Source: a virus
IMG/VR virus record: IMGVR_UViG_2716884766_000001
Location: 1-64,000 of that record
Length of the DNA stretch: 64,000 bases
Direction: 5' to 3' (one strand)
Both the position numbers and the translations under genes were made by a program. A model generated the notes under the pieces. The model made no database searches. It saw only the letters and a program-made list of their open reading frames with translations, and was not told the DNA's origin. Position 1 is the first letter of the stretch. Every line of letters starts with the position of its first letter. This document shows, in pieces, positions 12,301-50,275 of the stretch.

Positions 12301-15300
12301 GTGGATAATAGTGATCAGTAGACTGTCCATCAAGATCACATCTGAAGTTAAGTGATCCTGTTTTAATTCTAATCTTATCGTTAGTCGTTAATGTATGAGT
12401 ACCGATATTAAGTTCTAGTAAACCTGAAGAAGGAGTGAATGAAGCAGCTGATACTTGTTTAACATCAGTATTAACTGTTACTGTCATCAATCCAGTAGCA
12501 GGATTATATTCTGCGTGTTGAGCAGTTCTCTTTTGTGGAGATGGAACGTTGAATGTTCTAGGTGTAGTCTTCTTGATAGCGTTTAGACTATCGTTAAGAA
12601 TAGCACTGTGTATGATTTCAAATAATGAATCTACAGCAGCTTTTACCTCTACACAGTCAGCAGCTGTATGTCTACCAGCTGAGTTTGATACATCATGTGT
12701 AATAGTGAGATCAAATGTCTGTGTTAATCCATGATCACCTCTTACCACAACCTCGTTGTTAGCAAGAACTAATTTACAAATTTCTCTAGCATGTTCGATA
12801 CAACGAACTGATTGGAACTCCTCGTCATCTAGGTGAGGTGTACCAACATAATACTTCGCAGCATCCCATACTTTATTGTTACCACCGTGCTGTACGTTGA
12901 AAGCAACAGCATCAACAATATCTACGATGTCATCTATACAATCTTGTCCGTTACCTGTTGGAACGTGTAGTGTGGGATCTTCAGCAAGTTCCCAAGCATA
13001 TGCCTCAGCACCGATAAACTCTCTGTTAGCAATTAGTAGATCGTGAGCATCAACTACCTTGTTATTAGCAACTTCAAATCCAAAGTCAGCATTCATTCTA
13101 CCGACTGCTATGTCAGCAATGAACTGTCTGTTAGCCCATATTAGGTTACGAGCATCAGCATGTTTGTTACTTTGACCTGATCCTGCTGCGTCAGGAGTAA
13201 TTGTAAAGTCTCTAATCTGTGTAAGACCATGACTACCCTGTACAGTAACAGGATCATTTCTCATGATCTGTATAGCAATGTCTCTTGCGTGGTTGAATGT
13301 CTCTACAGATTCATTCTCTTCACCTACGACATGAGAACCATCAACGTAATACTTAGCACCATCCCATACTTGGTCGTTACCACCGTATGCTAGGTTATAT
13401 CCCATTGCCTCACAGTAGTCAACAATATCATCAATACATGCTTGGTTACCAGTAGGAACCTGATATGATGGGTTGTTGGCAAGCATTCTGTCTACTGCTT
13501 CCTGAGCAATAAACTGTTTGTTAGCAAGGATTAGAGATGTACCATCAGCAGATCTATCTGAAGGAGGTACACTGTTTGGTGTCTGCCATGGAGCAGGGAC
13601 TGTTATTGTAATATCTCCACTGTCTGTGCTAGCACCACCTAAGATAATGGTAGCAGTTCTGTGGTCAGCAACATCATCTATGATGTATGAACCATCAGGA
13701 GTAGCACCACTGAATACTATACTATATGCGTTCTTACCAAATACACCATGACCTCTTGGGCAGACAACTGTCATTACATTACCAGAGCATGTGTATGTAC
13801 CCTTTCTTGTAAATGTGGCAGAAGTTCCTGCGTTATTTAATTTCTTGACGTGAGCATATGACTCTAAAGCTATAAAGTCAACGTTGTTATTGATTGTCTC
13901 AGCACCGTCTCTTTGCTTAGACATCTCTTTGAAGTCAGCACCAAACTCAACCTTCTCAAATGCGTAAGGAGAGTTCCTTAATGACATCAAAGCATAGTTT
14001 GTAGCAGAACAAACCTGTTGGTCTCCAGATGGATCAAAGTCTGTAGCAAACTTAGAACATGAACCTCTGACTACAAACTTAAGTGAGTAACCATCAGCAC
14101 GTTCTATACGATGTGTAACGTATTTTCTTCCGTTGAAGTCACCAAGGTTATCAAAGATAGCAGCACTACCAGATCTAGTAACACTGTCTGATCCTCTGAT
14201 TATAAAGTATACTTCGTTTGTTGATGCGTTATATCTAGCAACACCAGCTCCTAAGTTAGAACTGCCACCCAAAATAGTAGCAAAATCACTCTGTGCTTGT
14301 GCTAGTGTACCAGCTCTATATGTCGCAACATGGAATGATTTATCTTGATGTTGACTACCAGTACCACTAAAGTTAAGACGAATACCAACACCCTTGTCAG
14401 CTGGAGGAGCATCAGAAATACTGATCAACGTTGGCCAGATCACATTCATCTTAGAAGGATCTGTATTAGCAAACGTTACTGTAAGAGTATTGCCACTCTG
14501 GGTGTATGTACCGCTAGCACTGGTACCAAAGTCTATAGGACTATATGGTAGACCGTAGATATGAACTTCTTGTCCTGCTTCGTAGTCATGACCAACAAAA
14601 GGAATACCTTCTATTGTTCTGGAAGCAGAAGTTACCTCAAAGGAAATACCTCTGTAAGTCTCTTGTGTGTTTAACGAACTATCGACTTGGTTGATGTCAA
14701 TAACGTTAAGTGCTTTCTCGAATCTATGATAACCTTTACCTATATCCGTGATAGGAAGGATAACAGGATCATCAGCACCAGATATATCAATATTGGTAGC
14801 ATCGGCTTGAGTATTTGCGACTTGGAAATAGTTGTTGTCTACTTTATAGACGTAGTATAGACCATTATTTGTAAGACCACCTATGTCCCCTGCCTTTGAA
14901 GAACGATAGTATACACCGTTACCAGTGAATAAACCATGCTTAGGGAAATAGAATGTATTATCTTTTACACTAATTCTACATGTGAAGAGTGTGTGTTCGT
15001 CTCCTGTACCAGGATCACCTAGGTCTCTTCTACCTGTGGTTGTTTGTAAGTTAAGTGCGTTAGCAGCAGTATCATATAATTCTAATGAATTGTCATCTAT
15101 AACTCTAACAAAATATGAGTCACCAGATGTTAAACCAGCTGGAGCAGTGCCACCTTCATTCTCTACTTTATATTCTACTTTGAAACCAGTCTTTAATCTG
15201 TGTAGAGGAACAGATATTTGATTTGTAGTAGCATCTACGATAGTAGCATTACTACCATCGAAACGTAATGTCTCTGTCTCAGAGTTAATTACCCACTGAT

Positions 15301-35449: not shown

Positions 35450-35457
35450 TATTTATA
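35450..35457 (-). promoter_or_regulatory. T4 late promoter TATAAATA upstream of gp8
   Basis: Plus strand TATTTATA at 35450-35457, overlapping the gp7 stop codon. Confidence 0.8.
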
Positions 35458-38400
35458 CTGTATAAACACGGATAGTTGGAAGGATCTCCATTGTACCCGT
35501 TGCTGTCAAAGATACTGGTAAAGATATGCTGAACGCAGTGTCACTCGCACGAGTAATCTTATACGTTCCATTTAATGATCCTGTAGGCCAATTTCCAATA
35601 GCAGATGTAAATCTGATGAATCTCTCCATACCAGTTTGGAGATTATGATTAGAACCCATTGTGATCACACAGTTAGTTCCACTACTATTGAAGTTTCCAG
35701 ATTCAGGTCCGTTAGCGTAACCAAATCCAAGAGCAGTTCCTGTATTTTTGAATCCTCTACCGTTTGTAGTAACAGTAAATGTCTCTGCTGCGTAATCTAC
35801 AGAACCATATAAGATTCTTTCACAACCCCATGTTGATGTTGAGGCATTCCAGAAAGGAATTAACAACTCACCGTTAGTTGGGAATCCAACTCCATTATTA
35901 TAGTATGCGTCAAGAACAGGAATAGTAGCAGTCTGCTGACCGATAGCACCAGTTAATTGTGTGGTGTATAGGAATGTACCATTAGATACTGCTCTGTCTC
36001 TCTGTGTCCTCTCTAAAGCGATTGGATGATATGGTGTGACAGAAGGAGGAGTATTGTAATTAGAACCACCTTTTAGGTTCTTGATGCCAATAACTCTACC
36101 ACTACCTTGCTCAATAATAGTCTCAGCAAATGCTCCAGATCCACCGCCACCACTAAAGATTAGGAATGGGGCAACCTCATAGTTAGATCCAGAATCAATT
36201 ATATTGACTTGTACAACAACACCGTTAACTACAACAGATTGGAATATAGCAACATTCGGTTTTAGACCTGTATACTCATATGTATCTAAGGAGGAAGAAC
36301 TAGCAATAGTAGCAAGTCTTCTGATGTCTCCTTCTGACTGTACCTGTAGTAAGTCGCCAGGATCAAGAGCAGAATATGTATCCTCAATTACAATATCAAG
36401 ATCAGAACCAGTGTAGATGTATATTAATACTTCACTACCAGCTCTAGGTGCTTCACTAAACTCAAGAATAGAACCATCCAATGTGTATGATACTTCAGGT
36501 TCCTGATAAACACCGTTCAAGAACATGATAAGGTTGTTAGCAGGGATAACCTGAGTAGAATCAGATTCTAGTGAGAATGGTTGGTCATTCTTCTTAAGTA
36601 TGAATGTCTTCTTCGTACCGTTCATGAATGGTGCGATAGAGTCCATATCTTGTAACTGTCCCACATAGAAACAGTAGAAGTCCATATTACCCTTTGGTGC
36701 TTCAGTAAAGTTAATTGTAGAAGGTGTGCCAGAGTAACTATATGCTGTACCTAACTCCTGTATGTGTGAGTTCAAGAATAATAGGAACCTGTCGTTAGCA
36801 GGAAGTGTATATCCTGATCCACCTACAGTAGCAGCAAAACCAGTTGTTGTTCCGTTGAATGTAACTGTCTCTACTTCAACTTGGAATGAGTTACCCACTG
36901 TACCACCTACGTCAGCAGCATCTACACCAAGTACGTCTGTGTTCTTATATCCGTCTCCACCACTGACTAAGCTTACACCTGTAACAGCACCTGTAGTTCT
37001 TGCTATAGGAGCACTGAGTGTACCAGCTGCTGTAGAAGCACTACCACCTGTGAGAGATAAGGTAGGTGTAGAAGCATATCCTACTCCTGTCTCTTGTACG
37101 ACTATTCTTTCTAAATGTCTACCTACAATAGCAGCTGCGGTAGCAGTTGTAGTTATTGTGTCGGCAGGATTCGCAATAATCTCAATAGTGACATCGTTAT
37201 ATCCAAATCCACCTTCATCAACTGTAATACCAGTGAGAGCCCCACCAGACACAGTAGCGGTAGCAGCAGCATTAAACCCAGTCTTTGATGTAATCTTAAC
37301 TGTTGGTACATTAGTATATCCGACTCCTCCGACGATAATTCCGATTGATTTGACATAACCTCTTTCTGCTAATACTGGTACATAGGATCCTGCTGTTGTT
37401 GGAGATCCACCAGAGATCTGAACTGTAGGAGCTGTCTCATATCCATCACCATGATTACCAACTGTTCTAGTTATACCAGAGAAGTTACCTTGGTTCAAAG
37501 CTGTATATGCTAGATCCATCAAGGTATCAACAGTTGCTTGTACAGCAGTACACGCTTCTCTAACTCCATAACCTTGCTTCACAGCATTAGGAGTAGCACT
37601 CAAGAATGTATGTGTATAGTTTCCACCAATAGTAAGAGCATTGGTTAGAGATGATGAGTATACATGTGTTGAAGCATTAGTAGCAGCAATACCAACGTTA
37701 ACTGTAATCCTGTCAATAGAAGATCTTACAATACTTAATGGTTGATCATATGCCTGATCCTTCTTCTGTTTCAATCCATTTGATGTAGCAGATACGAAAG
37801 CATGTGTTGTTGTGTTTGTAGAAGGTATAAAGTCTAATACTCTAACTTTAAATGTATCTGTGGTTACATTTCTAATCCTTAACCATTTGCCACTCACAGG
37901 GTCTGTAGAACGTGGATATGTATGGTTACTACCATTACCATCCTCAGCACAAGTAAAGGTCAATGAGTCATCGTCAAACTTAACGTAGTCACCCTTTCTC
38001 ATAGAGTGCCCAACTACAGTAACTACCATGTCACCGTCAGCAGGAGTGTATACAGCGTTGGTGACTGTGTGGTTGACTATATCTGTTCTTGGATATGAGT
38101 GAGTAGAACTGCTACTTCCTGCTATACCAACGTCAACTGTAATAGTTGTTGCTGATACTGCTGTGATTGCTTCAGCAACACCTGATGATGGGTCGCTAGC
38201 CCTAGGGTATGCATGATTAGTTGCGTGATTATCAGCAGCACAAGTAAATGTAACTGAATTATCAGCAAAGGTTACTGTGTTAGATGTGGTCAAACTATGT
38301 GTACCTATCTCAACTTCCATAAGACCTGTGAGTGGATCATAGGTTGTACCTGTCGCTGCTGTGAATGTTCCTGACGCTCCATTACCCGCTGTGATACCGT

Positions 38401-41400
38401 TTGTAGTACCAGATACGAATGTGTGAGTTCCAACTGCAGCATCACAAGTAAATGTGATACCACCATCAGAGATCTTAAGAGTTGTGCCTCTAACATGTAG
38501 ATTATATGCTACTGCTGCCTTGAATATGTGATCAGTTGTGTTAGTAGATGGAGCTGTGTTTAATACTTGTACTTTAAATGTATTTCTAGTTACATCTGTA
38601 ATAGGTTGCCATAGTTCACTGATAGGATCACTGCCTCTAGGATAAGCATGGTCACTAGCATGACTATCTTCCTGACATGTGAAGATAAGTGAGTTGTCAT
38701 CTATGATAATCTCATCTGTAGGTGTCAAACCATGATTCTCACAAGTTACAGTCATGATACCTGTAGTAGGATTATAGTCAGCACTGTCTATGCTGAGTGT
38801 TCTTTCAGATCTTAGTCCATGAGGTATAACAACAGCACCAGTAACAGCAGTTTGGAAGGTATGAGTATGTCCACCACCACTCTGTACAGCATCATTAGCA
38901 ACATAACCTGGTTTCCATCTGTGAGTAGATGTATTAGTAGATGGTGTAGAACTTAATGACTGGATAGTTATAGATGTGTCTGTAACAGCAGTAATTGTTA
39001 GAGCAGCTCCACTAGCAGGGTCACTAGGTCTTGGATATGAGTGGTCTGTCTGATAGAAGTCCATCAAACACTGATATACAAGAGAGTTATCTGTAATTGT
39101 AATAGCATCACCAACCTTGAGGATGTGATTGCCGATAGTTAACTCAACAAGACCTGTAACTGGATCGTAGTTTGAACCTGTGACAGTATGATTGACTAAA
39201 GGACTAGGTCCTACGTTAACTGTGATTGTATTATTTGTCTTCGCAATAATCTTAAGTGCTTTATCATAGAATGGATCTTTTCCAAATCTAGGATACATCT
39301 TAGTAGCATTGTTACCGTCCATTGAGCATTTGAATCCCAATGACTCAGGTCTGAACATAATCTCTTCACCTATCTCCATGCTGTGTGAACCAATGTTCAC
39401 TGTCATAGAACCTGTATTAGCATTATAGGTAGCAGCAGATACATTGAACTGTGTGTTATAGACTTCCATGTCCATATCACCAGTAGCAGGGTCATAGGTG
39501 GCATCTGTAATCTGATAGTTTACAGTAGGAGACTCTCCGACATACAATGTGATCGTAGTTCCTGTCTTAGAAAGGATAGGAAGTGACTTACGGTATGCCC
39601 AGTCTGTAGATCTAGGATATTTGTGATGTGTAACACTACCATCTTGAGCACACTTGAATGTCAATGACATATCATCAAGTTTAACTCTTGTTCCTACCTC
39701 TAGACTATGAGATCCTATTGTTATCTCTACTTGTCCTGATGTGGCAGTGTATACAGCGTTAGTTACGTTGTACTGAGTAGCATCAGTGCTCTGATATGCT
39801 GTAATTGTAGGATCTTTATACTGTGACTTGTCTGTAAGGTTAAGATGTGAGTATGTCTCGAATGATTCCTGTTGTATTGCCTTCAATACCATCTGACGTG
39901 CTTCTTCAAACACATAAAGTGTCTCTGCCTCTTCTCCTGCCACATGACTTCCTACGAAATACATGTTCAGTGTGTCATATAGAGTATGGTTACCACCATA
40001 TGCCACGTTAGTAGCAACTGCGTTCAATACATCTCTTGTATCAGACTTACATTGTCCATCACCCAAGCCAGGTGCGTTAAATCCAGTAGGAGCAGTCCTC
40101 GTAAAGGCACTCATAGTGTTAGTATCTACTGCTACCTCGACAATATTCATTAAAGTGTGTATTGTTGCTCTAGCACTAGCACATTGATTATCAGACCTAG
40201 TAATACCACCATCATACTTCTGTATCTCACCGTGATCACCAACTACAGTCACCGCTTCGTTAGCAATAACCTGTCTGGCTATCTTGTCAGCCTCACGGAA
40301 GGCATAAATCGTATGAATCTCTTCACCTGCTACATGAGCACCATCAACATAGTACTTGGCAGCATCGTATACCTCACTATTACCACCAAACTTAGCATTG
40401 ATAGCAACTGCCTCTAATACATCTCTTACATCATCAACACAGTCCTCATCATTGCCTGTTGGTTCTACAAATAGAGTTGGTTCTGTCTTATTGACATGGA
40501 TCATCAAGTCAGTATTGATAGCAGTAACAACAATATCAACAAACGTACTGATAGCGGACTTAGCACTAGCACAGCCGTCGTATATGTAAGTAACGTCTTC
40601 AAAGTATTGTTCATAACCATGATCTCCTGCGATTGATACTGTCTCATTCAAGATTACCTTGTCCATCAGACCTTTCATCTGATTAACAGCTGCTATTGTC
40701 TGCTGTTCTTCACCTTGTATTACACTACCAGAACTATATGCTGATGTGTAGTAGAAGGAAGCATCATATACCTTATTATTAGCACCAAATAGTAAGTTGA
40801 AAGCAATCGCTTCCAATATATCCATCAAGTCATCTCTACAGTCTTGTTCTGTGTATCCCTGAGCATGTGTATAACCAGGATAGTCAATAGTCTTGAATAG
40901 GTAGTATGCTTCCCAGACAATAAAGTCTTTGTTTGCCATAATCAAGTTATAGGCATCAAAGTGTCTCTTGTTAGCAATAGTATATGGTATATCAGCATGC
41001 ATCCTATCCACTGCTTCTCTAGCAATGAAGTCCTTATTCATTAAGATAAGGTTAGCTGCGTCTGCTACCTTGTTATCTACAGGTGTACCATACTTATTCA
41101 TCAGTCCCACAGCAATGTCTGCTATGACTCCTGCGTTGTTGTCAATCAGTGTTCTAGCATCAGCATATTTGTTATCGGTGACAAAAGTAGCACTATCGAG
41201 GACATTTGTTACAACTATGTTACCAGTTGCCCCCGATCCGTCTGATAATTTGTTAGTGAATGGAACGTTGTTGTATGTACCCGCAGTATAGCCTGTACCT
41301 TGATATACTCCATCAGTTGTATTCAGGGCGGTGATAACATCACCAAACTGATCTAACTGGAAGTTTCCAGATATATCAGATCTCTTGAAGTACATTATGA

Positions 41401-44400
41401 TAACTGATGAGTTCCTCATTGGAGGTTCTAAGAATGTTATCGTACTGCCTGAAAGAGTGTATGATGTAGGGTTCTGTACAATACCGTTGATAGTAACCAT
41501 CAACTGATTCTTATTTGTAGGTACAGTTGCTGTACCTCTAGTTCTTAACTGGAAGTTTCTATTAACATCATCAAATTCTACAGTTAGTTGATGCTGTGAG
41601 TCTGTTGATAGTGCTGTAATGTCTACAGTAGTATCAGCAACACCAACATTGATTGTTACATCATTACCAACTACATTAGTGATTGCTAGTGGTGTGTTGT
41701 AGGCAGGGTCTGTTGAACGTGGATAAGCATGAGTAGTAGCATGGTTATCTCCCGCACAAGTAAAGGTAAAGGCACCTAATCCTAATGTAATTGTATGACT
41801 GGTAGTCATTGTATTACTAGAAACTGTAAATGTTAGGTCACCTGTTACGGGGTTGTATGTCGCAGCAGAAGGTGTGCCAGTAAATCCATTACTACCTGTG
41901 ATTGGTAAGGCACTTACAAATGTATGAACAGATCCACCTGTTGTGGTAGATAGTTTAAAGTTATCATCATCTACACGAGTGACATAGTACGTACCTACTG
42001 GTAAACCACCTAGAGTTATACCTTCTCTAACATAAGGATAGTTACCTACATTCTGAGTTGGAATGTTGCCTGGATTGTCAATCGCATCCCAAACAATTTG
42101 AGCTAACACAGTTATAGCAGATTGTACATCAGCACATCCACCAGGATCTTGTGTGATTGTGACATCAGTGAATGGTAATAGGTTTTGAATTGCTTGTATG
42201 GCTAAGTCTCTAGCATACTGTATAGCAGCTATAGTCTCAACTGTCTCACCAACGATATAGTCTATAGCACCACCAACAACATAAGACTCAGCAGCATCTA
42301 CAGAGAATTTGTTACCACCATAGCGTAAATCATTACACCATGCGATAACTATAAGTCTTAGGTCTCTAGCACATGTGTCTGCGTTGTAATCTGGTTTAGT
42401 ACCATCAGTTAAGTTAGGATAACTCTGCTCTAACCATGTAATAGTAGTAGCAATGATATAATCTAAGTTGCCTAGTATTAAATTACGGGCATCTTGGAAT
42501 CTATCACCTTGTACAAGGTAAGATACTCTCTGATTTGATATTAGTCCGTGGTTGGCAAATGTAATCTGCTCATTTGATATATCTACGACATTACTATCTG
42601 TACCATTGAAGGTAATAGTCCTCTCATTGATAGGATCCATCTTATCAACAACAGCAGATAATATCTTTCTAACGTCAAGTAACTGTTTACCAACAACCTG
42701 AATGTTAGTTGGAACTGTTGCTGTGTAATCTGGTTTACCAAGTACAAAGTTCTCGATACGAGCTAACTTACCTGTGTTAGACGCGGATGGTTTAGGTACA
42801 AAGAAGGTTGTGCCATTAAATGACTTATTCTCATCACCAAATCTTTGTTCCCACCAGTCATTAGGATCTGGATTAGCACCATTGTAATATGATCTACGTT
42901 GATATCTCTTAAAGGCTGATTGTGATACGACCTGTGTACCTAATACCCTGAAACCAGCTGGGTGAGCAGAATTCTTAAATTGGTTCTTCCAGTCCCGTAC
43001 GTTGATTGGCGAGTTGACCACGTATGAGAACTCTTGGTATCTGTCACTATCGTATAGACGCTGATCGTTAAGATCAAGTATACCAGTAGTACGCTTAAAC
43101 TCAGCAGTAGCAGTGGCAATAGGTGATACAGTAAAGTTAGCGACTGATCTGTCAAAGTCATGTATTTCTCCAAAGGCATTAGACTGTAAACCGAAGACTG
43201 GTTGGTTAAGAGCAAACTCTCCTACCTCTACTTCAACAGATAGGACTCTACCTTTAGAATCCCATGCTTTTACTATACCCTGAGCAGAGAATGAAGCTAC
43301 AGATGAACCTTGATATACTTTCTCACCGATAGCAAATGACGCAGGAGTCATTGATACAGTAATCTGATCTCCTAAGTCTGTGGTTGTTAGGTTAAAGGTT
43401 GCTGTTCCTCCACTACCAATAGAAGGTTGACCTGTTATTGTTATTGATGATCCTGCCAAAGCATTTGCTAGTGTTGTTGCCATCTTGAGCTGGTTACTAG
43501 CAAGACCATTAGCAAGTGAAGGTGCTATAGCATAATATGTGACATTTGCTTGAAGAGGAGCTGGTAATGTACCATCTATCTCTAATAATTGTACTTTTGT
43601 ACCTAAAGGTATCTTAGTATCGTATGGGAAGTTAAGTGTACTGTTAGATTGTAGAGGAACGAATGAGTGAGTAATTCTTGCTTGTACAGCAGGAGTAGAT
43701 GAGTAACCTCTACCTGCATTTGCTATTGTAATTGCCTGAATAACTTCGTTGTCAATAATAGCATCCATAACGGCACCGCTTCCACCTCCACCAATGAGTT
43801 CGATGGTTGGTTTGGTAACGAAGGATCCACCACCGTTTGTAACAGTGAAGAAGTCAACGATTTGAGTTCGTGTGAGCTGTAAATTATAGTTTGTATTAAC
43901 GCTTGGTTTGAGGGTTCTATCATGACTGTAATTGTACGTGATATTGTCTCCACCAAGACTGATGATCTTACCTAGATCACTAGACTTGAGTAGTATGGAA
44001 GCACCATTTCCTGTACCCTGCTTAACTGTAATAATAGGAGGATTTTGGAATCTAGTTCCTGCGTTTTCAATAACAATAGAACTTACAGTCTCATCTATGA
44101 TCTCAGCACGTAGTACAGCATCTATACCTGTACCACCAGAGATCTGAACTTCAGGAGCAGATAAGAAACCTGATCCAGAGTTAGATACAATAACCTGATC
44201 AATAGAAGCATCTATAGTTGTACCTGTGACTGCCTTACGAACAAAGTCAAGTGAGTCAACTCTAAGAACAAAGTCATCTGCTGAACTACCACCTGTAATA
44301 TCCTCACCACGAATAGTAATAAGGTCACCTAGTGAATAGTTTGCTCCACCCGCTAATACATTAGCAGTTGTTACGTCTTGATTGGACGCAGAAATGATAA

Positions 44401-47400
44401 CTTGAATTGATACCCCACTACCACCTGTAGGAGCTACAGATTCCTGTGATACGGTATATGTACCTGGCGTAAAGTTAGCAGAACTATTCTGACTATTGAC
44501 GCTAAGAGTAGCTACACCACCGTAGTATGGGTCATCAATAAAGATTTCAGGGGCAGTACGGTAATTACTACCTCCATCACCATTTATAGCTATATTACTT
44601 ATAGTTCCTATCTCAGGACCTGATGAAGGAACGATAGCAGCAACGTTTGCTTGCTCACCACCAACTGCTGTTATTTTTGCTTGGTTTGATCCTGCGTATA
44701 TCTTATTAGTAGCAGCAATAGCAGTGGTAAACATGATGAAACCACGAGTAGCAGCACCTGGTAGATTATTACGTAATGGTTGTACTCTAAGTGTAGATGT
44801 ATTTGGATCCCAACTGATTACCTTACCTCTAGCAGTATCACCGTCAAGAACTAACTTAGATGCTATAACGTCACCTGGATTAAAGTCACCAAAGATCTCA
44901 TCTAGTGTCAAATCTACAAAGTCTGGCATAGAGCAGACAACAGCAGGAGGATTAGCACCATCATATCCAATACCCGCTTCTAATACTGATACGTCTTCTA
45001 GTTTACCTGAGATAGTAGCAAATGCTTGAGCACCACCACCTGACCTTTCTACACCTGTAAATTTAGGGAATGTAGAATAGTTTCTGCCTGGATCACCTAT
45101 GTTGATACTAGCAATACCACCTGAAGGGAATATAGAGTTAGTAGAGTATGAAATCAGATTAGCAGCTGTATAGTTATTCTCTGGTTCTCTTGCTAATATA
45201 AAGTTAATTGTAGTTGTAGTAGGAATTGCTGTGACTGTGTTCGCTCCTAGGAATGGATCGTTAACTACGCTCAGGTAGCTACCAGATACACCACCATTGA
45301 TATCAAAGTAGAATAATGTGCCAGGTACATCATCTAGTGATATAGTAATTGATATTTGTTCTCCTGTAACTGGATCATTCTCTGATCCAACAATATTTTT
45401 ATATGTGAATACATTAGTATTCTCTTTATCAAAGGTAAACTCTAGTCTCTTACCAGTATTAGATGAGTCAGTGGTGTTAAACTTATAAAGGTGACCGTTG
45501 ATAAGATCTAACTTAGGTTCTTTGACATACACTACACATGCTGTAGTAATAGCAGTATCAGTTATAATACCAACTGCTTTCTTGAACTGGAATCTTCTTC
45601 CTGTGCTTATACCTGTAACTGTGAACGTACCATCATAGTCAACTGGGTTAGTTCCTGTAATAATAACCTCATCACCTATCTTCACTTGATGGGCAGCTGT
45701 ACCTCTAGCAGTAAACTCTTGATTTATCTTACTAGGAGTGATGTAGAATCCATTAACACCACCAATATCGCTAGTAACAATAGGATCTAACTGCTCATTG
45801 TTGTAGTAACCACTACCTTCCTTTGTTAGAGTGACAGATGTTACCTCACCACTATTACCAACGACAATAGTAAACTCAGCACCTTCACCTGAAGAGGCAG
45901 AACTATTAGCAAGAGGAACGTTAGTATATGTGCCAGGTGTACCACCACTACCAGCTAACATTGTCCATTCATCTTGTACTATACCACCAGTCTTTTTGAC
46001 ATTACCAATATCTACAGAGAAGTTTTGACCTGTATTACCAATATTAGAGATATTGGCAGTTAGTACATCTCCATTGCTGTAATTCTTACCTGTATTCTGT
46101 ATAGAGACAGATGTGACCGTATTTCCACTTACGATGATATCAGCAGAAGCATTTTGCCCTGTACCGCCAATTAGAGGTACATTCGAGTAATTACCATCTG
46201 TGAGTCCTGTACCGCCAGTAATCGAGATATTAGCTTGTAATATCCTACCCTTTGAACTAATGATGAAATTAGTCAAATCAAAGTATTTAAAGTGATATTT
46301 GTCGTTTACAACCTTTACATCAATCTCACGGGTGTATTGGTTGTCTCCAATCGCAATATCAACACTATCGCCAATTTTTAAGAAATGATCAGTCGCTGTA
46401 GTGATAGTTCCAGTAATTACGTCTGTAGTCGAGTTTACAGAAGAAACAATCGCAGATGTGCCAGATCCAGAGATTTTAGACACTCTAGCGGAAACACCAC
46501 TTCCTCCAGTGCCTGTTTCGTCAAATATGAGTCTATCGTTAACTTTATAGTTGAAACCTGGACCTTCGATCAGATATTGGTCTAATCCACTTGAGAAGTA
46601 CCTATTTGTCGCAGATACGAATAATGAGTCAACAGAACCACCCTGAATGCTTGGGAAGAAGTCAAAGTACCCAATACCGACAGTTACGAAGCCAATGAAG
46701 GATTCATCGTTTTCTAAGACAATAGGAGTCGTAGAATCTTCCATAGCGAGTATATACTCGACTGGGTTGCCTTTATTCTTTCTTCTTACTAATGCTGTGT
46801 CTGTAGCAACATATGGACGTTTATAGCGAACTGCGTCTTCTGTAAAGTTTCTTTGGAGTCCATTTCCCTTCCAGTTGACATCTTCTGCCTGAGAGTAGTA
46901 ATTAGGTCCTACAAAGTAAGGAAACTTCGGATTTCCAGTTGTTCCGTCTAATGCTGTGAAATATGCGTATATACCAGCTGGATATTCGGGAGTTACGCAG
47001 AATCGACCATTATACTGATCTAAGTCGCCTAATCCTTCAACATATTCGTAATCTTCGATATATGTCCCCATCTTGTCGATTTGTGCCAAATCATTACCAA
47101 CTAACGCATCTCTTTCCGTTCTGATGCGATATGAGCTGATCATTTGCTTGATCTGGTTATATGGGTTCTTATTCTCTCTATCTGCGTATCCGTAAGGTCC
47201 GTAAATGGGATGTCCGTCAAATGACCATCCTAAGATCGGTGAATGCCTTGTTGGGTTTAATTCTGCGTATGTTGTGTCACTTACGTTATCTCCAAGTAAG
47301 AAACGCAACTTTTTGGGATTATATAAGTATCCGTACTCTCCACCATAGATTCCGAAGTTAGCACCTTTGATTGATACACCATTATTACTATCTGCTATTT

Positions 47401-50275
47401 TAGGTGATACAAACAGTGGATCTCCGACTTCATCCGCACTAGCAGCTAAGTTCTGCGTCAATATAGGTAATTCGACTTGGAAGGTAGCTCCAGAACCAGG
47501 ATACACGATATCAACAGTTGTTATACCAGAAGTGTAACCTACACCTCCATTAGTGACTGTAATACCCGTAACTTGCTGTGTACCAGAATCTATACTCGCA
47601 AAAGCAACCGCACCGACTCCATCACCACTAATAACAACGTCAGGAGCACCATAGTAGTTACTACCACCAAATGTCAAGATAATAGATACAATCTTACCAT
47701 TTACGATAGATGGGTAAGCAACAGCACCAGATCCAGATACTAGAGTGATATTTGGTCTTTGATTGTAGTTTGTACCATTGTTTGTGATTGTTATGCCTTC
47801 AGCTTCTAATCCACCACGAACAACCGCTGTACCAGTCGCACCTTGTCCACCACCACCAGATATTACCACTGTAGGTATAGATTGGTATCCTGAGCCAGGT
47901 GCGGACACGGATATAGCAGTTACGACTCCTGCGGTGATTGTAGCAGTCGCAGATGCTTCAACTGTAGGACTTCCACCCACAATACCAACTGTAGGAGCTT
48001 CCGTATAACCAGATCCTCCGTTTTCTACGTTTACCGCAAATAATGAACCAGATACGCTTACAGTAGCTTCAGCAGACAATCCTTCGTATTCCCAGAGGCA
48101 ACCACCGTCTTGTACTGGATCTGGAGTTGTATGTGTAGGTTCTTGTCCTAATTCTGCGGTTTTACCGCTTCCTAAGTTCTTATATCTGTATCCTAGACTA
48201 TTTCTGATTCTTTGGTTAAGAAAGAAGGATGTACCCTTTCTATGGATTGGTTCAAACTCTACAATCGGTGGATTAGTGATATCATACCCAGATCCCGCAT
48301 TTAGAACCGTAATTGACTTTACACCACCAAATAGTTTCGTTTCTACTGATTTATAGGAGAACATTGGTACTCCATTCACAGCAAACCCAACTTGACCCAC
48401 AGGAGTCGGAGTTTTGATAGATTTAGTAGTTGTTTCGAGAGGAATGCGTTTTAGATATCTCTGGTTGCCAGGATCTAGGTCTCCGCTGCCAAAAGGTCCT
48501 ATTTCATGACCAGGTACACCTGGTGACGCAATTATCGCATATTCTGAAGATCTGTAGACATTCTGTACATCAGATGGTGTATCCTCTAATCCTAAACGTA
48601 TAGATGTGTCAACTGACGTAGTTTTCGCAAATTCACGTGTAACTAGGAATGGTACGTCCACACCACGGATAGGAGTGCTAGGAATTAAGATACTAAACTC
48701 AAAATTGTTACTTACACCAAGTACAGTGAATGATGAGTTATATACGTCCTCTGGAGCGTTCAAAATGACAACTCTGTCTTCTCTTCTTAATCCGTGCTCT
48801 TGTTCAGTCGTAATATTCGCTACAACACTACCATCTGCCTTCGGAACGTCTAAAACTAGCAATGTTCCGTTTAGGAGCTTCTTAACGTTGTATACGAAGC
48901 TTTCCCAGATAGGATCTAACGCATCAAAGCCTGGTTCTGATGGTGTGGTGACTTTTGAGTCTTGTAAGTAATATTTACCGCCACTTACGATGTCTATTCC
49001 TCTTGTACCGCCAAATACCTTTAAACTGATCTTAGATTCGTCTCTATTGCTGTATCCAAAGATTTCATAGGAAGAAGTTACCTCAGATCCTGCAATATGG
49101 GGTGCATTGACTGTATCTTGTCTCGCACGGGTACATCCTAGGAACTGGGTGACTGTTTTGTCTGTATAGTTGATAATCTCGTCATCTATACGAATAGAGC
49201 CGTTCTGTTCTGGCCATCCAATAGTAGAGTCGACTGTTACGACGTTTTCCGTAAGGTTAGAACTTAGATCTTCAGAAAGGAGCGTTTTATACGGAGTTGT
49301 GAAACTTCCATCGCCATTTTCCGTATCTACATCTAATTCATAGATCTTTCCGTCTTCGGTAAACACCTCAACTACGGATTTTACGTATATACGTGCGGAA
49401 TTGACAAGAGGGTCGTTTGGATCGTTCTCTTGGAATAATACTTCACCTGTAAGTTCCACAGGGTTTCCGCTTATCGCTGTAGCACGAATAATCTCCCTTA
49501 CAGTGTAAAATGCGTCACTAGGTTTGAATATTCTTTCTTTAGGGTACTCAATAACTGCTTCTACACCAAAGAGCACTCTCATCAAGTACTTAAATGACCT
49601 TGATGTACCTTTAGCAGCGTAAAAGTCCTTAAGACGCTTAGTAACTGTTGATTGTTGGATTTGGGGGTCAAACTTAGAAGGGAATGACTCAGCAAACTGA
49701 TCTCTGAACCTCTGTAGTAAGAATAGAGGTAAAAGGTTGTTTAGGTTGACTACTGTAGCACCAAAAGCATGTGTAGCTGCTACAGATGTTGAAAATGTGT
49801 ACTCTGATAGTAAACCTATCTTGGTAGTGGCATGAAATCCTCTAACACACTCTTGAAACTGTGTTTGGGACTTACTCTTGTAGTATATGATCTCTTCGTC
49901 TATCATTAAGAGACCTTCCTTTGGAAAATCTCTAGTATTTCCTACGTCAATGACTGTTGAGTCTAAAGTCACCCCAGAGGACGCTGTAGTCGACTCTACG
50001 AGGTCATTTAGCTTGTCTATGTTATAATATTCATCTATGTTCTGTATTATGTCAACAGGGTTACCCTTTAGTTCAAGTGATTTAAAGTAATACTTGACAA
50101 ATTGTATAAAGTCAGGATAATCCTCTTGGATAAACTGAGGCATTTGCTCCTCAAGTCTATCCGAGACTTTAGATTTAGATTCTGGCGAAACCGAAGCGTC
50201 AATCGGGTCAACTGTGACCTCAGTTTGAGGTGTGACCCACGACGCAACTCTCCACGACGACTGCTCAGCTGGCAT
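35453..50275 (-). CDS. gp7: Baseplate wedge initiator gp7, greatly expanded (4940 aa)
   Basis: Lies between gp6 and gp8; QMPQFIQEDYPDFIQFVKYYF, KDFYAAKGTSRSFKYLMRVLFG and DSDRYQEFSYVV...HPAGF core motifs; also a split YHYH-like domain and nested repeats. Confidence 0.88.
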   Translation of the reverse strand: MPAEQSSWRVASWVTPQTEVTVDPIDASVSPESKSKVSDRLEEQMPQFIQEDYPDFIQFVKYYFKSLELKGNPVDIIQNIDEYYNIDKLNDLVESTTASSGVTLDSTVIDVGNTRDFPKEGLLMIDEEIIYYKSKSQTQFQECVRGFHATTKIGLLSEYTFSTSVAATHAFGATVVNLNNLLPLFLLQRFRDQFAESFPSKFDPQIQQSTVTKRLKDFYAAKGTSRSFKYLMRVLFGVEAVIEYPKERIFKPSDAFYTVREIIRATAISGNPVELTGEVLFQENDPNDPLVNSARIYVKSVVEVFTEDGKIYELDVDTENGDGSFTTPYKTLLSEDLSSNLTENVVTVDSTIGWPEQNGSIRIDDEIINYTDKTVTQFLGCTRARQDTVNAPHIAGSEVTSSYEIFGYSNRDESKISLKVFGGTRGIDIVSGGKYYLQDSKVTTPSEPGFDALDPIWESFVYNVKKLLNGTLLVLDVPKADGSVVANITTEQEHGLRREDRVVILNAPEDVYNSSFTVLGVSNNFEFSILIPSTPIRGVDVPFLVTREFAKTTSVDTSIRLGLEDTPSDVQNVYRSSEYAIIASPGVPGHEIGPFGSGDLDPGNQRYLKRIPLETTTKSIKTPTPVGQVGFAVNGVPMFSYKSVETKLFGGVKSITVLNAGSGYDITNPPIVEFEPIHRKGTSFFLNQRIRNSLGYRYKNLGSGKTAELGQEPTHTTPDPVQDGGCLWEYEGLSAEATVSVSGSLFAVNVENGGSGYTEAPTVGIVGGSPTVEASATATITAGVVTAISVSAPGSGYQSIPTVVISGGGGQGATGTAVVRGGLEAEGITITNNGTNYNQRPNITLVSGSGAVAYPSIVNGKIVSIILTFGGSNYYGAPDVVISGDGVGAVAFASIDSGTQQVTGITVTNGGVGYTSGITTVDIVYPGSGATFQVELPILTQNLAASADEVGDPLFVSPKIADSNNGVSIKGANFGIYGGEYGYLYNPKKLRFLLGDNVSDTTYAELNPTRHSPILGWSFDGHPIYGPYGYADRENKNPYNQIKQMISSYRIRTERDALVGNDLAQIDKMGTYIEDYEYVEGLGDLDQYNGRFCVTPEYPAGIYAYFTALDGTTGNPKFPYFVGPNYYSQAEDVNWKGNGLQRNFTEDAVRYKRPYVATDTALVRRKNKGNPVEYILAMEDSTTPIVLENDESFIGFVTVGIGYFDFFPSIQGGSVDSLFVSATNRYFSSGLDQYLIEGPGFNYKVNDRLIFDETGTGGSGVSARVSKISGSGTSAIVSSVNSTTDVITGTITTATDHFLKIGDSVDIAIGDNQYTREIDVKVVNDKYHFKYFDLTNFIISSKGRILQANISITGGTGLTDGNYSNVPLIGGTGQNASADIIVSGNTVTSVSIQNTGKNYSNGDVLTANISNIGNTGQNFSVDIGNVKKTGGIVQDEWTMLAGSGGTPGTYTNVPLANSSASSGEGAEFTIVVGNSGEVTSVTLTKEGSGYYNNEQLDPIVTSDIGGVNGFYITPSKINQEFTARGTAAHQVKIGDEVIITGTNPVDYDGTFTVTGISTGRRFQFKKAVGIITDTAITTACVVYVKEPKLDLINGHLYKFNTTDSSNTGKRLEFTFDKENTNVFTYKNIVGSENDPVTGEQISITISLDDVPGTLFYFDINGGVSGSYLSVVNDPFLGANTVTAIPTTTTINFILAREPENNYTAANLISYSTNSIFPSGGIASINIGDPGRNYSTFPKFTGVERSGGGAQAFATISGKLEDVSVLEAGIGYDGANPPAVVCSMPDFVDLTLDEIFGDFNPGDVIASKLVLDGDTARGKVISWDPNTSTLRVQPLRNNLPGAATRGFIMFTTAIAATNKIYAGSNQAKITAVGGEQANVAAIVPSSGPEIGTISNIAINGDGGSNYRTAPEIFIDDPYYGGVATLSVNSQNSSANFTPGTYTVSQESVAPTGGSGVSIQVIISASNQDVTTANVLAGGANYSLGDLITIRGEDITGGSSADDFVLRVDSLDFVRKAVTGTTIDASIDQVIVSNSGSGFLSAPEVQISGGTGIDAVLRAEIIDETVSSIVIENAGTRFQNPPIITVKQGTGNGASILLKSSDLGKIISLGGDNITYNYSHDRTLKPSVNTNYNLQLTRTQIVDFFTVTNGGGSFVTKPTIELIGGGGSGAVMDAIIDNEVIQAITIANAGRGYSSTPAVQARITHSFVPLQSNSTLNFPYDTKIPLGTKVQLLEIDGTLPAPLQANVTYYAIAPSLANGLASNQLKMATTLANALAGSSITITGQPSIGSGGTATFNLTTTDLGDQITVSMTPASFAIGEKVYQGSSVASFSAQGIVKAWDSKGRVLSVEVEVGEFALNQPVFGLQSNAFGEIHDFDRSVANFTVSPIATATAEFKRTTGILDLNDQRLYDSDRYQEFSYVVNSPINVRDWKNQFKNSAHPAGFRVLGTQVVSQSAFKRYQRRSYYNGANPDPNDWWEQRFGDENKSFNGTTFFVPKPSASNTGKLARIENFVLGKPDYTATVPTNIQVVGKQLLDVRKILSAVVDKMDPINERTITFNGTDSNVVDISNEQITFANHGLISNQRVSYLVQGDRFQDARNLILGNLDYIIATTITWLEQSYPNLTDGTKPDYNADTCARDLRLIVIAWCNDLRYGGNKFSVDAAESYVVGGAIDYIVGETVETIAAIQYARDLAIQAIQNLLPFTDVTITQDPGGCADVQSAITVLAQIVWDAIDNPGNIPTQNVGNYPYVREGITLGGLPVGTYYVTRVDDDNFKLSTTTGGSVHTFVSALPITGSNGFTGTPSAATYNPVTGDLTFTVSSNTMTTSHTITLGLGAFTFTCAGDNHATTHAYPRSTDPAYNTPLAITNVVGNDVTINVGVADTTVDITALSTDSQHQLTVEFDDVNRNFQLRTRGTATVPTNKNQLMVTINGIVQNPTSYTLSGSTITFLEPPMRNSSVIIMYFKRSDISGNFQLDQFGDVITALNTTDGVYQGTGYTAGTYNNVPFTNKLSDGSGATGNIVVTNVLDSATFVTDNKYADARTLIDNNAGVIADIAVGLMNKYGTPVDNKVADAANLILMNKDFIAREAVDRMHADIPYTIANKRHFDAYNLIMANKDFIVWEAYYLFKTIDYPGYTHAQGYTEQDCRDDLMDILEAIAFNLLFGANNKVYDASFYYTSAYSSGSVIQGEEQQTIAAVNQMKGLMDKVILNETVSIAGDHGYEQYFEDVTYIYDGCASAKSAISTFVDIVVTAINTDLMIHVNKTEPTLFVEPTGNDEDCVDDVRDVLEAVAINAKFGGNSEVYDAAKYYVDGAHVAGEEIHTIYAFREADKIARQVIANEAVTVVGDHGEIQKYDGGITRSDNQCASARATIHTLMNIVEVAVDTNTMSAFTRTAPTGFNAPGLGDGQCKSDTRDVLNAVATNVAYGGNHTLYDTLNMYFVGSHVAGEEAETLYVFEEARQMVLKAIQQESFETYSHLNLTDKSQYKDPTITAYQSTDATQYNVTNAVYTATSGQVEITIGSHSLEVGTRVKLDDMSLTFKCAQDGSVTHHKYPRSTDWAYRKSLPILSKTGTTITLYVGESPTVNYQITDATYDPATGDMDMEVYNTQFNVSAATYNANTGSMTVNIGSHSMEIGEEIMFRPESLGFKCSMDGNNATKMYPRFGKDPFYDKALKIIAKTNNTITVNVGPSPLVNHTVTGSNYDPVTGLVELTIGNHILKVGDAITITDNSLVYQCLMDFYQTDHSYPRPSDPASGAALTITAVTDTSITIQSLSSTPSTNTSTHRWKPGYVANDAVQSGGGHTHTFQTAVTGAVVIPHGLRSERTLSIDSADYNPTTGIMTVTCENHGLTPTDEIIIDDNSLIFTCQEDSHASDHAYPRGSDPISELWQPITDVTRNTFKVQVLNTAPSTNTTDHIFKAAVAYNLHVRGTTLKISDGGITFTCDAAVGTHTFVSGTTNGITAGNGASGTFTAATGTTYDPLTGLMEVEIGTHSLTTSNTVTFADNSVTFTCAADNHATNHAYPRASDPSSGVAEAITAVSATTITVDVGIAGSSSSTHSYPRTDIVNHTVTNAVYTPADGDMVVTVVGHSMRKGDYVKFDDDSLTFTCAEDGNGSNHTYPRSTDPVSGKWLRIRNVTTDTFKVRVLDFIPSTNTTTHAFVSATSNGLKQKKDQAYDQPLSIVRSSIDRITVNVGIAATNASTHVYSSSLTNALTIGGNYTHTFLSATPNAVKQGYGVREACTAVQATVDTLMDLAYTALNQGNFSGITRTVGNHGDGYETAPTVQISGGSPTTAGSYVPVLAERGYVKSIGIIVGGVGYTNVPTVKITSKTGFNAAATATVSGGALTGITVDEGGFGYNDVTIEIIANPADTITTTATAAAIVGRHLERIVVQETGVGYASTPTLSLTGGSASTAAGTLSAPIARTTGAVTGVSLVSGGDGYKNTDVLGVDAADVGGTVGNSFQVEVETVTFNGTTTGFAATVGGSGYTLPANDRFLLFLNSHIQELGTAYSYSGTPSTINFTEAPKGNMDFYCFYVGQLQDMDSIAPFMNGTKKTFILKKNDQPFSLESDSTQVIPANNLIMFLNGVYQEPEVSYTLDGSILEFSEAPRAGSEVLIYIYTGSDLDIVIEDTYSALDPGDLLQVQSEGDIRRLATIASSSSLDTYEYTGLKPNVAIFQSVVVNGVVVQVNIIDSGSNYEVAPFLIFSGGGGSGAFAETIIEQGSGRVIGIKNLKGGSNYNTPPSVTPYHPIALERTQRDRAVSNGTFLYTTQLTGAIGQQTATIPVLDAYYNNGVGFPTNGELLIPFWNASTSTWGCERILYGSVDYAAETFTVTTNGRGFKNTGTALGFGYANGPESGNFNSSGTNCVITMGSNHNLQTGMERFIRFTSAIGNWPTGSLNGTYKITRASDTAFSISLPVSLTATGTMEILPTIRVYTV
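37481..41173 (-). repeat. Three nested helical repeats enclosing a seven-copy beta-repeat tree in gp7
   Basis: Three consecutive N-halves (YADARTLI, VADAANLI, HFDAYNLI) then three cores (CRDD, CVDD, CKSD); seven F/Y-x-C...YPR beta units at about 37574-39787. Confidence 0.8.

What the first reader, a model, noticed from the sequence alone, without database searches (positions are those of the whole stretch)
37481..41173. gp7 carries a ((( ))) nest of three helical modules
Seen: three opening segments in a row (NKYADARTLIDNN, NKVADAANLILMN, KRHFDAYNLIMAN) are followed by three cores (CRDD...FGAN...CASA; CVDD...FGGN...CASA; CKSD...YGGN). The outermost terminal helix (CTAVQATVDTL) appears only after the ~740-aa beta tree. 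Inference: repeated insertion at the same site after helix 1 builds an out-and-back stalk projecting from the baseplate wedge. T4 gp7 is only about 1,000 aa.
Basis: partly seen in the sequence, partly recalled or inferred. Interest (0 to 1): 0.85.

Follow-up and report, generated by a model that had tools for sequence, protein, structure and literature searches.

The report
Nested phycobiliprotein-like domains in phage gp7
A giant baseplate protein of a Prochlorococcus virus holds three copies of the host's light-harvesting pigment-protein fold, inserted one inside another like Russian dolls; the copies keep the pigment-attachment residues, so it can now be tested whether the virus particle carries pigment.

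Summary
Every quoted motif sits at the stated place in a 4940-aa minus-strand ORF (35453..50275), which lies between gp6-like and gp8-like genes of a T4-like cyanomyovirus. The pieces fit as a nest:
- Opening piece a, core 3 and the far terminal helix form the outer unit.
- Opening piece b and core 2 form the middle unit.
- Opening piece c and core 1 form the contiguous inner unit.

A 57%-identical orthologue has the same nest without the beta array, so the array is a clean 744-aa insertion four residues before the last helix's Cys. Across 77 architectures of giant relatives, the domain pieces follow a balanced-bracket grammar that shuffles never reach.

It is a phycobiliprotein-like globin domain (helices A to H, lacking X and Y). 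A family profile matches only phycobiliproteins among solved-structure sequences, and the AF2 model aligns to beta subunits at Z 18. All four units in this protein keep the Cys and Asp of the bilin site.

Not shown: direct helix-to-core contacts, because no coordinates were available; the stalk geometry; and any pigment. This scan has reported such nested domains in other cyanophage proteins. I found no paper describing them.

The parts
35453..50275 (-). Giant gp7-position baseplate gene (4940 aa, P0001)
   Evidence: ORF. It lies between a gp6-like gene (phrog_219) and a gp8-like gene (phrog_438). Its N-terminus matches phrog_2885 'baseplate wedge subunit'. Pfam PF23786 Baseplate_wedge scores 37.5 bits against a cut-off of 27. 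The P-HM2 gene in the same position is annotated gp7 and is 4454 aa.
41096..41179 (-). Opening piece a (aa 3033-3060): helices A and B of the outermost unit A
   Evidence: Matches unit-profile positions 2-29. Strongly conserved among 17 orthologues (A4).
40985..41080 (-). Opening piece b (aa 3066-3097): helices A and B of the middle unit B
   Evidence: Matches unit-profile positions 2-33. The weak Pfam PF00502 match of this protein falls here, on profile positions 29-64.
40499..40975 (-). Innermost complete unit C (aa 3101-3259; opening piece c, core 1 and its last helix)
   Evidence: Matches profile positions 2-157. AF2 pLDDT 91.6, pTM 0.89. The listed Foldseek matches (to rank 50) are all phycobiliprotein beta subunits.
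40109..40474 (-). Core 2 and its last helix (aa 3268-3389): helices E to H of unit B
   Evidence: Matches profile positions 34-157, which exactly complements piece b.
39797..40081 (-). Core 3 (aa 3399-3493): helices E to G of unit A
   Evidence: Matches the profile from position 35. Collinear with P0031 up to ...QYKDPTITA.
37565..39796 (-). Beta-repeat array (aa 3494-4237, 744 aa) inserted in the G-H loop of unit A
   Evidence: Absent from orthologue P0031, with clean flanks on both sides. Holds six C...YPR motifs. Its length ranges from 0 to about 1460 aa among orthologues.
37478..37564 (-). Last helix of unit A (aa 4238-4266, Cys 4242)
   Evidence: Directly follows core 3 in P0031. 76% mean column identity across 15 orthologues. 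Found by the independent profile at positions 131-155.
42068..42511 (-). Upstream uninterrupted unit U0 (aa 2589-2736), carrying a C-A-R-D motif
   Evidence: Matches profile positions 2-155. In orthologues the same unit is split by one or two inserted units.

Best explanation
Residues 3033-4266 of the gp7-position protein are three phycobiliprotein-like globin domains nested by recursive insertion. Each domain has helices A, B, E, F', G and H and lacks the X-Y hairpin.

Unit C is whole. It sits in the B-E loop of unit B, and unit B sits in the B-E loop of unit A. Unit A also carries a 744-aa beta-repeat array in its G-H loop, four residues before the Cys that starts helix H.

Shown here: homology to phycobiliproteins, the fold of the unit, the complementary break points, the insertion seen by comparing orthologues, and the bracket grammar in relatives.

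Inferred: each split unit still folds as one domain. Unit A would then act as a hub on the baseplate protein with two branches: the helical B-to-C arm, and a beta array of variable length that probably contacts the host surface. The fold appears to be used because it tolerates inserts at a few loops.
For: Fold and family:
- A profile of 39 diverse complete units (A1) matches 98 distinct solved-structure sequences. Every one of the 60 listed is a phycobiliprotein or close relative; the best is phycoerythrin beta at E 1.9e-5. The unit's Cys and Asp fall on C-L-R-D of the beta Cys82 site.
- AF2 of the window's own unit C gives pLDDT 91.6.
- The listed Foldseek matches (to rank 50) are all phycobiliprotein beta subunits, probability 1.00, TM 0.61-0.76.
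- VIA-align gives Z 18, rmsd 2.1 A over 138 residues.
- Relative P0033 scores 77 bits on Pfam PF00502.

Nest:
- Rebuilt units align over their full length with contiguous units.
- The pieces cover complementary profile positions.
- P0031 is collinear with P0001 aa 3028-3493 and aa 4238-4449, so the far helix belongs to core 3.
- U0, which is uninterrupted here, is 62-70% identical to the two OUTER halves that flank one or two inserted whole units in P0111, P0031 and P0025. It is only about 35% identical to the inserted units.
- In 77 unique architectures, 243 continuation pieces match the top of a bracket stack. The shuffle maxima are 160 and 210.
- The number of opening-only pieces equals the number of cores lacking them in 66 of 77 architectures, r 0.92.
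- AF2 of the natural array-free nest gives pLDDT 81.6 and pTM 0.73. Its only two bridge residues, 71 and 237, lie in the linker entering and the linker leaving unit C.
Against: - Packing of pieces a and b on cores 3 and 2 was therefore not seen directly.
- In the model, pieces a and b are unbroken helices of 27-28 residues, whereas the A/B helix of unit C is kinked.
- Some structural alignments place the end of piece b where helix Y lies in phycobiliproteins.
- P0001 itself stays below the Pfam PF00502 cut-off: 14.7 bits against 22.2.
- The C-terminal half of the unit has no sequence match to phycobiliproteins on its own.
- The architectures compared are related proteins, not independent samples.
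- The hub and host-contact role is inference only.
Confidence: 0.82

Rival explanations
1. The three opening pieces form a separate helical bundle, or an X/Y-like N-terminal extension of unit C. Cores 2 and 3 would then be truncated globin domains without A/B helices.
For: - Pieces a and b are predicted as unbroken helices joined by a 5-residue linker.
- VIA alignments that extend to model residues 53-61 place the end of piece b on phycobiliprotein residues 13-20, the X/Y region.
- I had no contact data.
Against: - Pieces a and b match the A/B positions of the unit profile, not X/Y.
- The counts of opening-only pieces and cores lacking them agree in 66 of 77 architectures.
- Break and resume positions are complementary, with a median difference of 0.
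- Split outer halves stay 62-70% identical to an uninterrupted orthologous unit.
- A pTM of 0.73 for 495 residues suggests a confidently fixed overall arrangement rather than loosely tethered parts.
Confidence: 0.08
2. The units are working biliproteins. A bilin made by the phage reductase is attached at the conserved Cys residues, perhaps by the phage CpeT-like protein, so the baseplate carries pigment. This can hold together with the nest.
For: - Cys and Asp of the C-x-x-D site are kept in all four units of P0001, and the full C-A-R-D motif in U0.
- A second Cys at the start of helix H is present in at least 90% of units.
- Cys is rare in this protein, 27 in 4940 aa, and 8 of them fall at these two positions.
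- The same contig encodes a CpeT-family match, the only one in the assembly, and a bilin reductase.
Against: - The Arg of C-x-R-D is lost in three of the four units.
- Some units in relatives lack one Cys or the other.
- No pigment data exist.
- The Cys residues could instead stabilise the fold outside the cell.
- CpeT and the reductases are usually read as acting on host antennae (my own knowledge, not checked in a paper here).
Confidence: 0.2
3. The pattern is a chance arrangement of low-complexity helical repeats and has no domain meaning.
For: None found.
Against: - Piece E-values range from 1e-5 to 1e-54.
- The unit model is confident.
- The pieces are conserved among orthologues at 76-82% mean column identity.
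- Shuffles never reach the observed grammar.
Confidence: 0.01

Closest known systems
Phycobiliprotein beta subunits (CpcB, CpeB, cryptophyte PE/PC beta; Pfam PF00502)
   Same: - Same globin-like fold from helix A to helix H: Z 18, rmsd 2.1 A.
- Sequence similarity over helices A, B and E.
- Cys and Asp of the C-L-R-D bilin site are conserved.
- A Cys at the start of helix H. By range arithmetic and positions I recall from memory, it falls on beta Cys153 or Cys158.
   Different: - No X-Y hairpin, so no alpha-beta monomer of the usual kind.
- Part of a 4940-aa virion protein.
- The Arg of the site is mostly replaced by Asp or Ser.
- The C-terminal half shows no sequence similarity.
- P0001 is below the Pfam cut-off.
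- The units are inserted into each other.
- No pigment is known.
ApcE (core-membrane linker) alpha-allophycocyanin domain with its PB-loop
   Same: A phycobiliprotein fold that sits inside a large multidomain protein and carries an insertion of 50-70 residues in a loop (PMC11789067). From memory, that loop lies between helices B and E, the same site as here.
   Different: The ApcE insert is a loop, not a whole folded domain, and it is not recursive. ApcE is a pigment-bearing part of the host antenna.
T4 gp7 baseplate wedge protein and cyanomyovirus gp7 (for example P-HM2 PHM2_086, 4454 aa)
   Same: The same gene position, gp25-gp6-gp7-gp8. The N-terminus matches a PHROG annotated 'baseplate wedge subunit', and Pfam PF23786 is over its cut-off.
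   Different: About five times longer than T4 gp7 (about 1030 aa, from memory). No sequence match to any solved chain. Most of the length is inserted modules.
Recursive domain-in-domain insertions, such as the nested barrel motifs of the Si3 insert of cyanobacterial RNA polymerase
   Same: Copies of one domain inserted into loops of other copies, which gives a balanced-bracket order along the chain.
   Different: A different fold (helical globin against beta barrel), a different protein and a different biological setting.

Membership tests
Phycobiliprotein (Pfam PF00502) | Score over the Pfam gathering cut-off (22.2 bits) | tested here: not met
   P0001 segment 3030-3500 scores 14.7 bits, E 0.031, on piece b only. 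The six-frame search gives 9.9 bits. Relatives do pass: P0033 at 77.4 bits and P0119 at 27.6 bits.
Phycobiliprotein (Pfam PF00502) | Specific sequence homology to solved phycobiliproteins | tested here: met
   Profile A1, whose first row is P0001:3100-3260, matches 98 distinct solved-structure sequences. All 60 listed are phycobiliproteins or close relatives; best E 1.9e-5, over helices A, B and E. The C-terminal half alone matches nothing.
Phycobiliprotein (Pfam PF00502) | Globin-like fold with helices A, B, E, F', G and H | tested here: met
   AF2 pLDDT 91.6. Foldseek probability 1.00, TM 0.61-0.76, all listed matches beta subunits. VIA-align Z 18, rmsd 2.1 A, 138 residues aligned.
Phycobiliprotein (Pfam PF00502) | N-terminal X-Y helix hairpin that builds the alpha-beta monomer | tested here: not met
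   Units start at beta residue 31-34 in both the sequence and the structure alignments. No separate X-Y segment precedes U0 or unit C.
Phycobiliprotein (Pfam PF00502) | Bilin-site Cys82 and Asp85 (C-x-R-D) | tested here: met
   The motifs are C-A-R-D (U0), C-R-D-D, C-V-D-D and C-K-S-D. Cys and Asp are present in at least 90% of 39 units and align to C-L-R-D. The Arg is kept only in U0.
Phycobiliprotein (Pfam PF00502) | Second bilin-site Cys of beta subunits (Cys153/158) in the G-H loop | tested here: inconclusive
   A Cys at the start of helix H is present in at least 90% of units. Model Cys204 lies 19 residues before the aligned end (223), which pairs with chain residue 172 or 177. That points to residue 153 or 158 only if helix H has no gap. 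The site numbers are from memory.
Phycobiliprotein (Pfam PF00502) | Covalently bound bilin | not testable with these tools
   Needs spectroscopy or mass spectrometry of virions or of recombinant protein.
T4-type gp7 baseplate wedge protein | Gene order gp25-gp6-gp7-gp8 | tested here: met
   The neighbours match phrog_261, phrog_219 and phrog_438. P-HM2 has the same order, with the gene there annotated gp7.
T4-type gp7 baseplate wedge protein | Sequence similarity to baseplate wedge families or to T4 gp7 itself | tested here: inconclusive
   phrog_2885 covers aa 28-590, and PF23786 scores 37.5 bits, over its cut-off. phmmer against solved chains, a set I assume includes T4 gp7, finds nothing.
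Nested (domain-in-domain) insertion | Split pieces are complementary, balanced in number and ordered last-opened first-closed | tested here: met
   Model positions run 2-29 | 2-33 | 2-157 | 34-157 | 35 onward | 131-155. In relatives, 243 pieces match the top of the stack, against 17 crossing and 28 orphan. Counts are equal in 66 of 77 architectures.
Nested (domain-in-domain) insertion | Split halves fold together as one domain | tested here: inconclusive
   The AF2 nest model is confident (pTM 0.73), and the linkers entering and leaving unit C are bridged.

The most novel reading that the evidence does not exclude
The nested units are the missing acceptors for phage-made bilins. The phage CpeT-like lyase would attach a bilin to the conserved Cys residues, so the baseplate of this Prochlorococcus phage would carry chromophores. 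These could sense or respond to light at adsorption.
Probability: 0.17. Interest if true: 0.92.

Novelty: new variant of a known kind. Interest (0 to 1): 0.7.

Why it matters
- It identifies an unannotated part of the giant cyanophage gp7 as a captured host fold.
- It shows that this fold accepts whole domains at a few fixed loops, which is useful as a natural guide for protein engineering.
- It explains part of how gp7 grew about five-fold over the T4 protein.
- The beta array ranges from 0 to about 1460 aa at one loop, which marks a likely site of host-range change.
- The conserved bilin-site residues, together with a CpeT-like gene and a bilin reductase on the same contig, turn an old question (what the phage pigment genes are for) into a simple bench test on virions.

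Tried and rejected
- megablast of the segment against phage records found no match.
- phmmer of the segment and of the whole protein against solved chains found no match.
- Pfam on single units found no match, even at E 10.
- A profile of the C-terminal half of the unit against solved chains gave only a chance kinesin hit at E 0.73.
- hhalign of the unit profile against the host-like CpeB of the same assembly gave the same register but was weak: E 0.0045, probability 7.8.
- The structural second look at the nest model aligned only unit C, so it could not show the split units.
- I tried to pair each opening piece with its core by comparing similarity profiles against 60 reference units. Piece a fits core 3 best (0.82 against 0.72 and 0.66), but pieces b and c do not discriminate, so the test is inconclusive.
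- More distant gp7 relatives (P0114, P0120) are too rearranged for a site-by-site comparison.
- Five literature searches found no description of phycobiliprotein-like or self-nested domains in phage tail proteins. The paper on bilin-associated globins (PMC10151467) does not mention phage virion proteins.
Full report
WHAT IS THERE

The window is the structural block of a T4-like cyanomyovirus, with all genes on the minus strand. The finding lies in a 4940-aa ORF, 35453..50275 (P0001). Upstream are a gp25-like and a gp6-like gene, and downstream a gp8-like gene (PHROG matches). The nearest named phages are Prochlorococcus phages P-HM1, P-HM2 and MED4-213, at 61% identity in gp6. In P-HM2 the gene in this position is annotated gp7 and is 4454 aa. 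The assembly holding the window is a 1.6-Mb Prochlorococcus-like genome, with this phage on contig C3.

THE OBSERVATION

Every quoted motif is at the stated coordinate:
- Opening segments start at aa 3035, 3068 and 3103.
- Cores start at Cys 3146, 3279 and 3409.
- The far helix starts at Cys 4242.

I rebuilt the units as the nest predicts: a + core 3 + far helix, b + core 2, and c + core 1, which is contiguous. All three align end to end with each other and with a fourth, uninterrupted unit upstream (U0, aa 2588-2748). A profile of 39 diverse complete units from relatives (A1) contains neither of the two outer units. It finds the pieces at complementary positions: 2-29, 2-33, 2-157, 34-157, 35 onward and 131-155.

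WHAT THE MODULE IS

Many giant relatives carry precomputed Pfam PF00502, 'Phycobilisome protein'. P0033 scores 77 bits on it, while P0001 reaches only 14.7 bits, on piece b.
- Profile A1 matches 98 distinct solved-structure sequences. All 60 listed are phycobiliproteins or close relatives. The best is phycoerythrin beta at E 1.9e-5.
- In those alignments, unit positions 3-63 fall on beta residues 33-99, and the unit's nearly invariant Cys and Asp fall on C-L-R-D.
- AF2 of the window's own unit C gives pLDDT 91.6 and pTM 0.89, with six helices.
- All listed Foldseek matches (to rank 50) are phycobiliprotein beta subunits.
- VIA-align gives Z 18, rmsd 2.1 A over 138 residues, pairing model 72-223 with chain 31-177.

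The unit is therefore the globin part of a phycobiliprotein, helices A to H, without the X-Y hairpin.

THE NEST

Four lines of comparison support it.

1. Orthologue P0031 (57% identity, 4445 aa) is collinear with P0001 aa 3028-3493 and then directly with aa 4238-4449. The far helix therefore follows core 3 at once in P0031. The beta array is a clean 744-aa insertion four residues before Cys 4242. That helix is 76% conserved by column in 15 orthologues whose arrays run from 0 to about 1460 aa.

2. U0 is uninterrupted here. In P0111, P0031 and P0025 it corresponds to two outer halves, 62-70% identical to U0, that flank one or two whole inserted units. The inserted units are only about 35% identical to U0.

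3. I parsed the profile pieces of 121 giant relatives (77 distinct architectures) with a bracket stack.
   - 243 continuation pieces match the last-opened unit; 17 cross and 28 are orphans.
   - 1000 shuffles of piece order reach at most 160 matches, and shuffles of the closing pieces alone reach at most 210.
   - Insertion sites cluster at profile positions 30-40, about 80, 108-115 and 127-131.
   - The number of opening-only pieces equals the number of cores lacking them in 66 of 77 architectures (r 0.92).
   - For early breaks, resume-minus-break has a median of 0.
   - These proteins are related to each other, so the counts are not independent events.

4. AF2 of the natural array-free nest (P0031:3281-3775, 17 orthologues) gives pLDDT 81.6 and pTM 0.73. 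Pieces a and b score 83-94. The only two bridge residues, 71 and 237, lie in the linker entering and the linker leaving unit C, so they must pair with each other, as an inserted domain requires.

LIMITS

Packing of pieces a and b on cores 3 and 2 is therefore inferred, not seen.
- In the model, pieces a and b are unbroken helices. Some alignments place the end of piece b where helix Y lies in phycobiliproteins. This keeps the separate-bundle rival alive at a low level.
- The 'stalk' geometry is not shown.
- The beta array leaves the base unit A at its G-H loop, not the tip. The likely shape is a hub with two branches.

PIGMENT SITE

All four units keep the Cys and Asp of the site. U0 keeps the full C-A-R-D motif. 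A second Cys opens helix H in at least 90% of units. By range arithmetic, it would fall on beta Cys153 or Cys158; those positions are from memory, so this is an inference. Cys is rare in this protein: 27 in 4940 aa, with 8 at these two positions and 7 in the beta-module motif C...YPR. Contig C3 also encodes the only CpeT-family match of the assembly, and a bilin reductase, 14 and 32 kb beyond the window. Whether virions carry bilin is untested.

NOVELTY

Five literature searches found no description of this. ApcE is a known case of a phycobiliprotein domain with a loop insert (PMC11789067). I reached the phycobiliprotein reading. A later look-up showed that this scan has reported nested phycobiliprotein-like domains in fibre and gp7 proteins of other cyanophages. 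This window is therefore a further, well-supported case.

Noticed in passing
window 9182-13921, minus strand (4471-aa ORF 3365..16780 = P0084): The window's other giant protein holds a second nest of four of the same units. The profile pieces are 4-52, 3-129, 2-32, 2-157, then a gap of about 845 aa, then 35-156, 128-156 and 42-156. The brackets balance.
   Followed up: partly
G000 contig C3:78032-78184 and C3:96157-96708 (same contig, beyond the window): A 145-aa ORF matches the C-terminal part of Pfam CpeT at 33 bits and is the only CpeT-family match in the assembly. A 207-aa ORF matches ferredoxin-dependent bilin reductase at 59 bits.
   Followed up: partly
G000 contig C2:89009-89422 (L001:1414-1941, minus strand): The assembly is a 1.6-Mb Prochlorococcus-like genome, 95% complete. 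It has its own 175-aa phycoerythrin-beta-like gene (95 bits on PF00502, motif VCLRD). The phage contig therefore sits in a host assembly.
   Followed up: partly
window 37565-39796 and 41700-41760 (P0001 aa 2840-4122): The beta module motif F-x-C ... H-x-Y-P-R-x-x-D-P occurs seven times, six of them inside the 744-aa array. The conserved Cys and His hint at a metal site or other fixed chemistry. The module has no Pfam family.
   Followed up: no
orthologues P0002, P0025, P0027, P0031 (same loop as window 37565-39796): The beta array in the G-H loop of the outer unit ranges from 0 aa (P0031) through about 630 aa (P0002) and 744 aa (this window) to about 1250 and 1460 aa (P0025, P0027). The flanks stay conserved.
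   Followed up: partly
window 46946-47344 (P0001 aa 978-1110): A Pfam YHYH domain (PF14240, E 3e-26) sits in the N-terminal third of gp7. It is shared by the gp7-type relatives but not by the fibre-type relatives that carry PF00502.
   Followed up: no
relatives P0033-P0073 (fibre-type giant proteins): These proteins insert units before the last helix rather than after helix B. This gives runs such as ((((() ())))) whose break and resume positions match at 112-131. Nest depth reaches 5-6 in many of them.
   Followed up: partly
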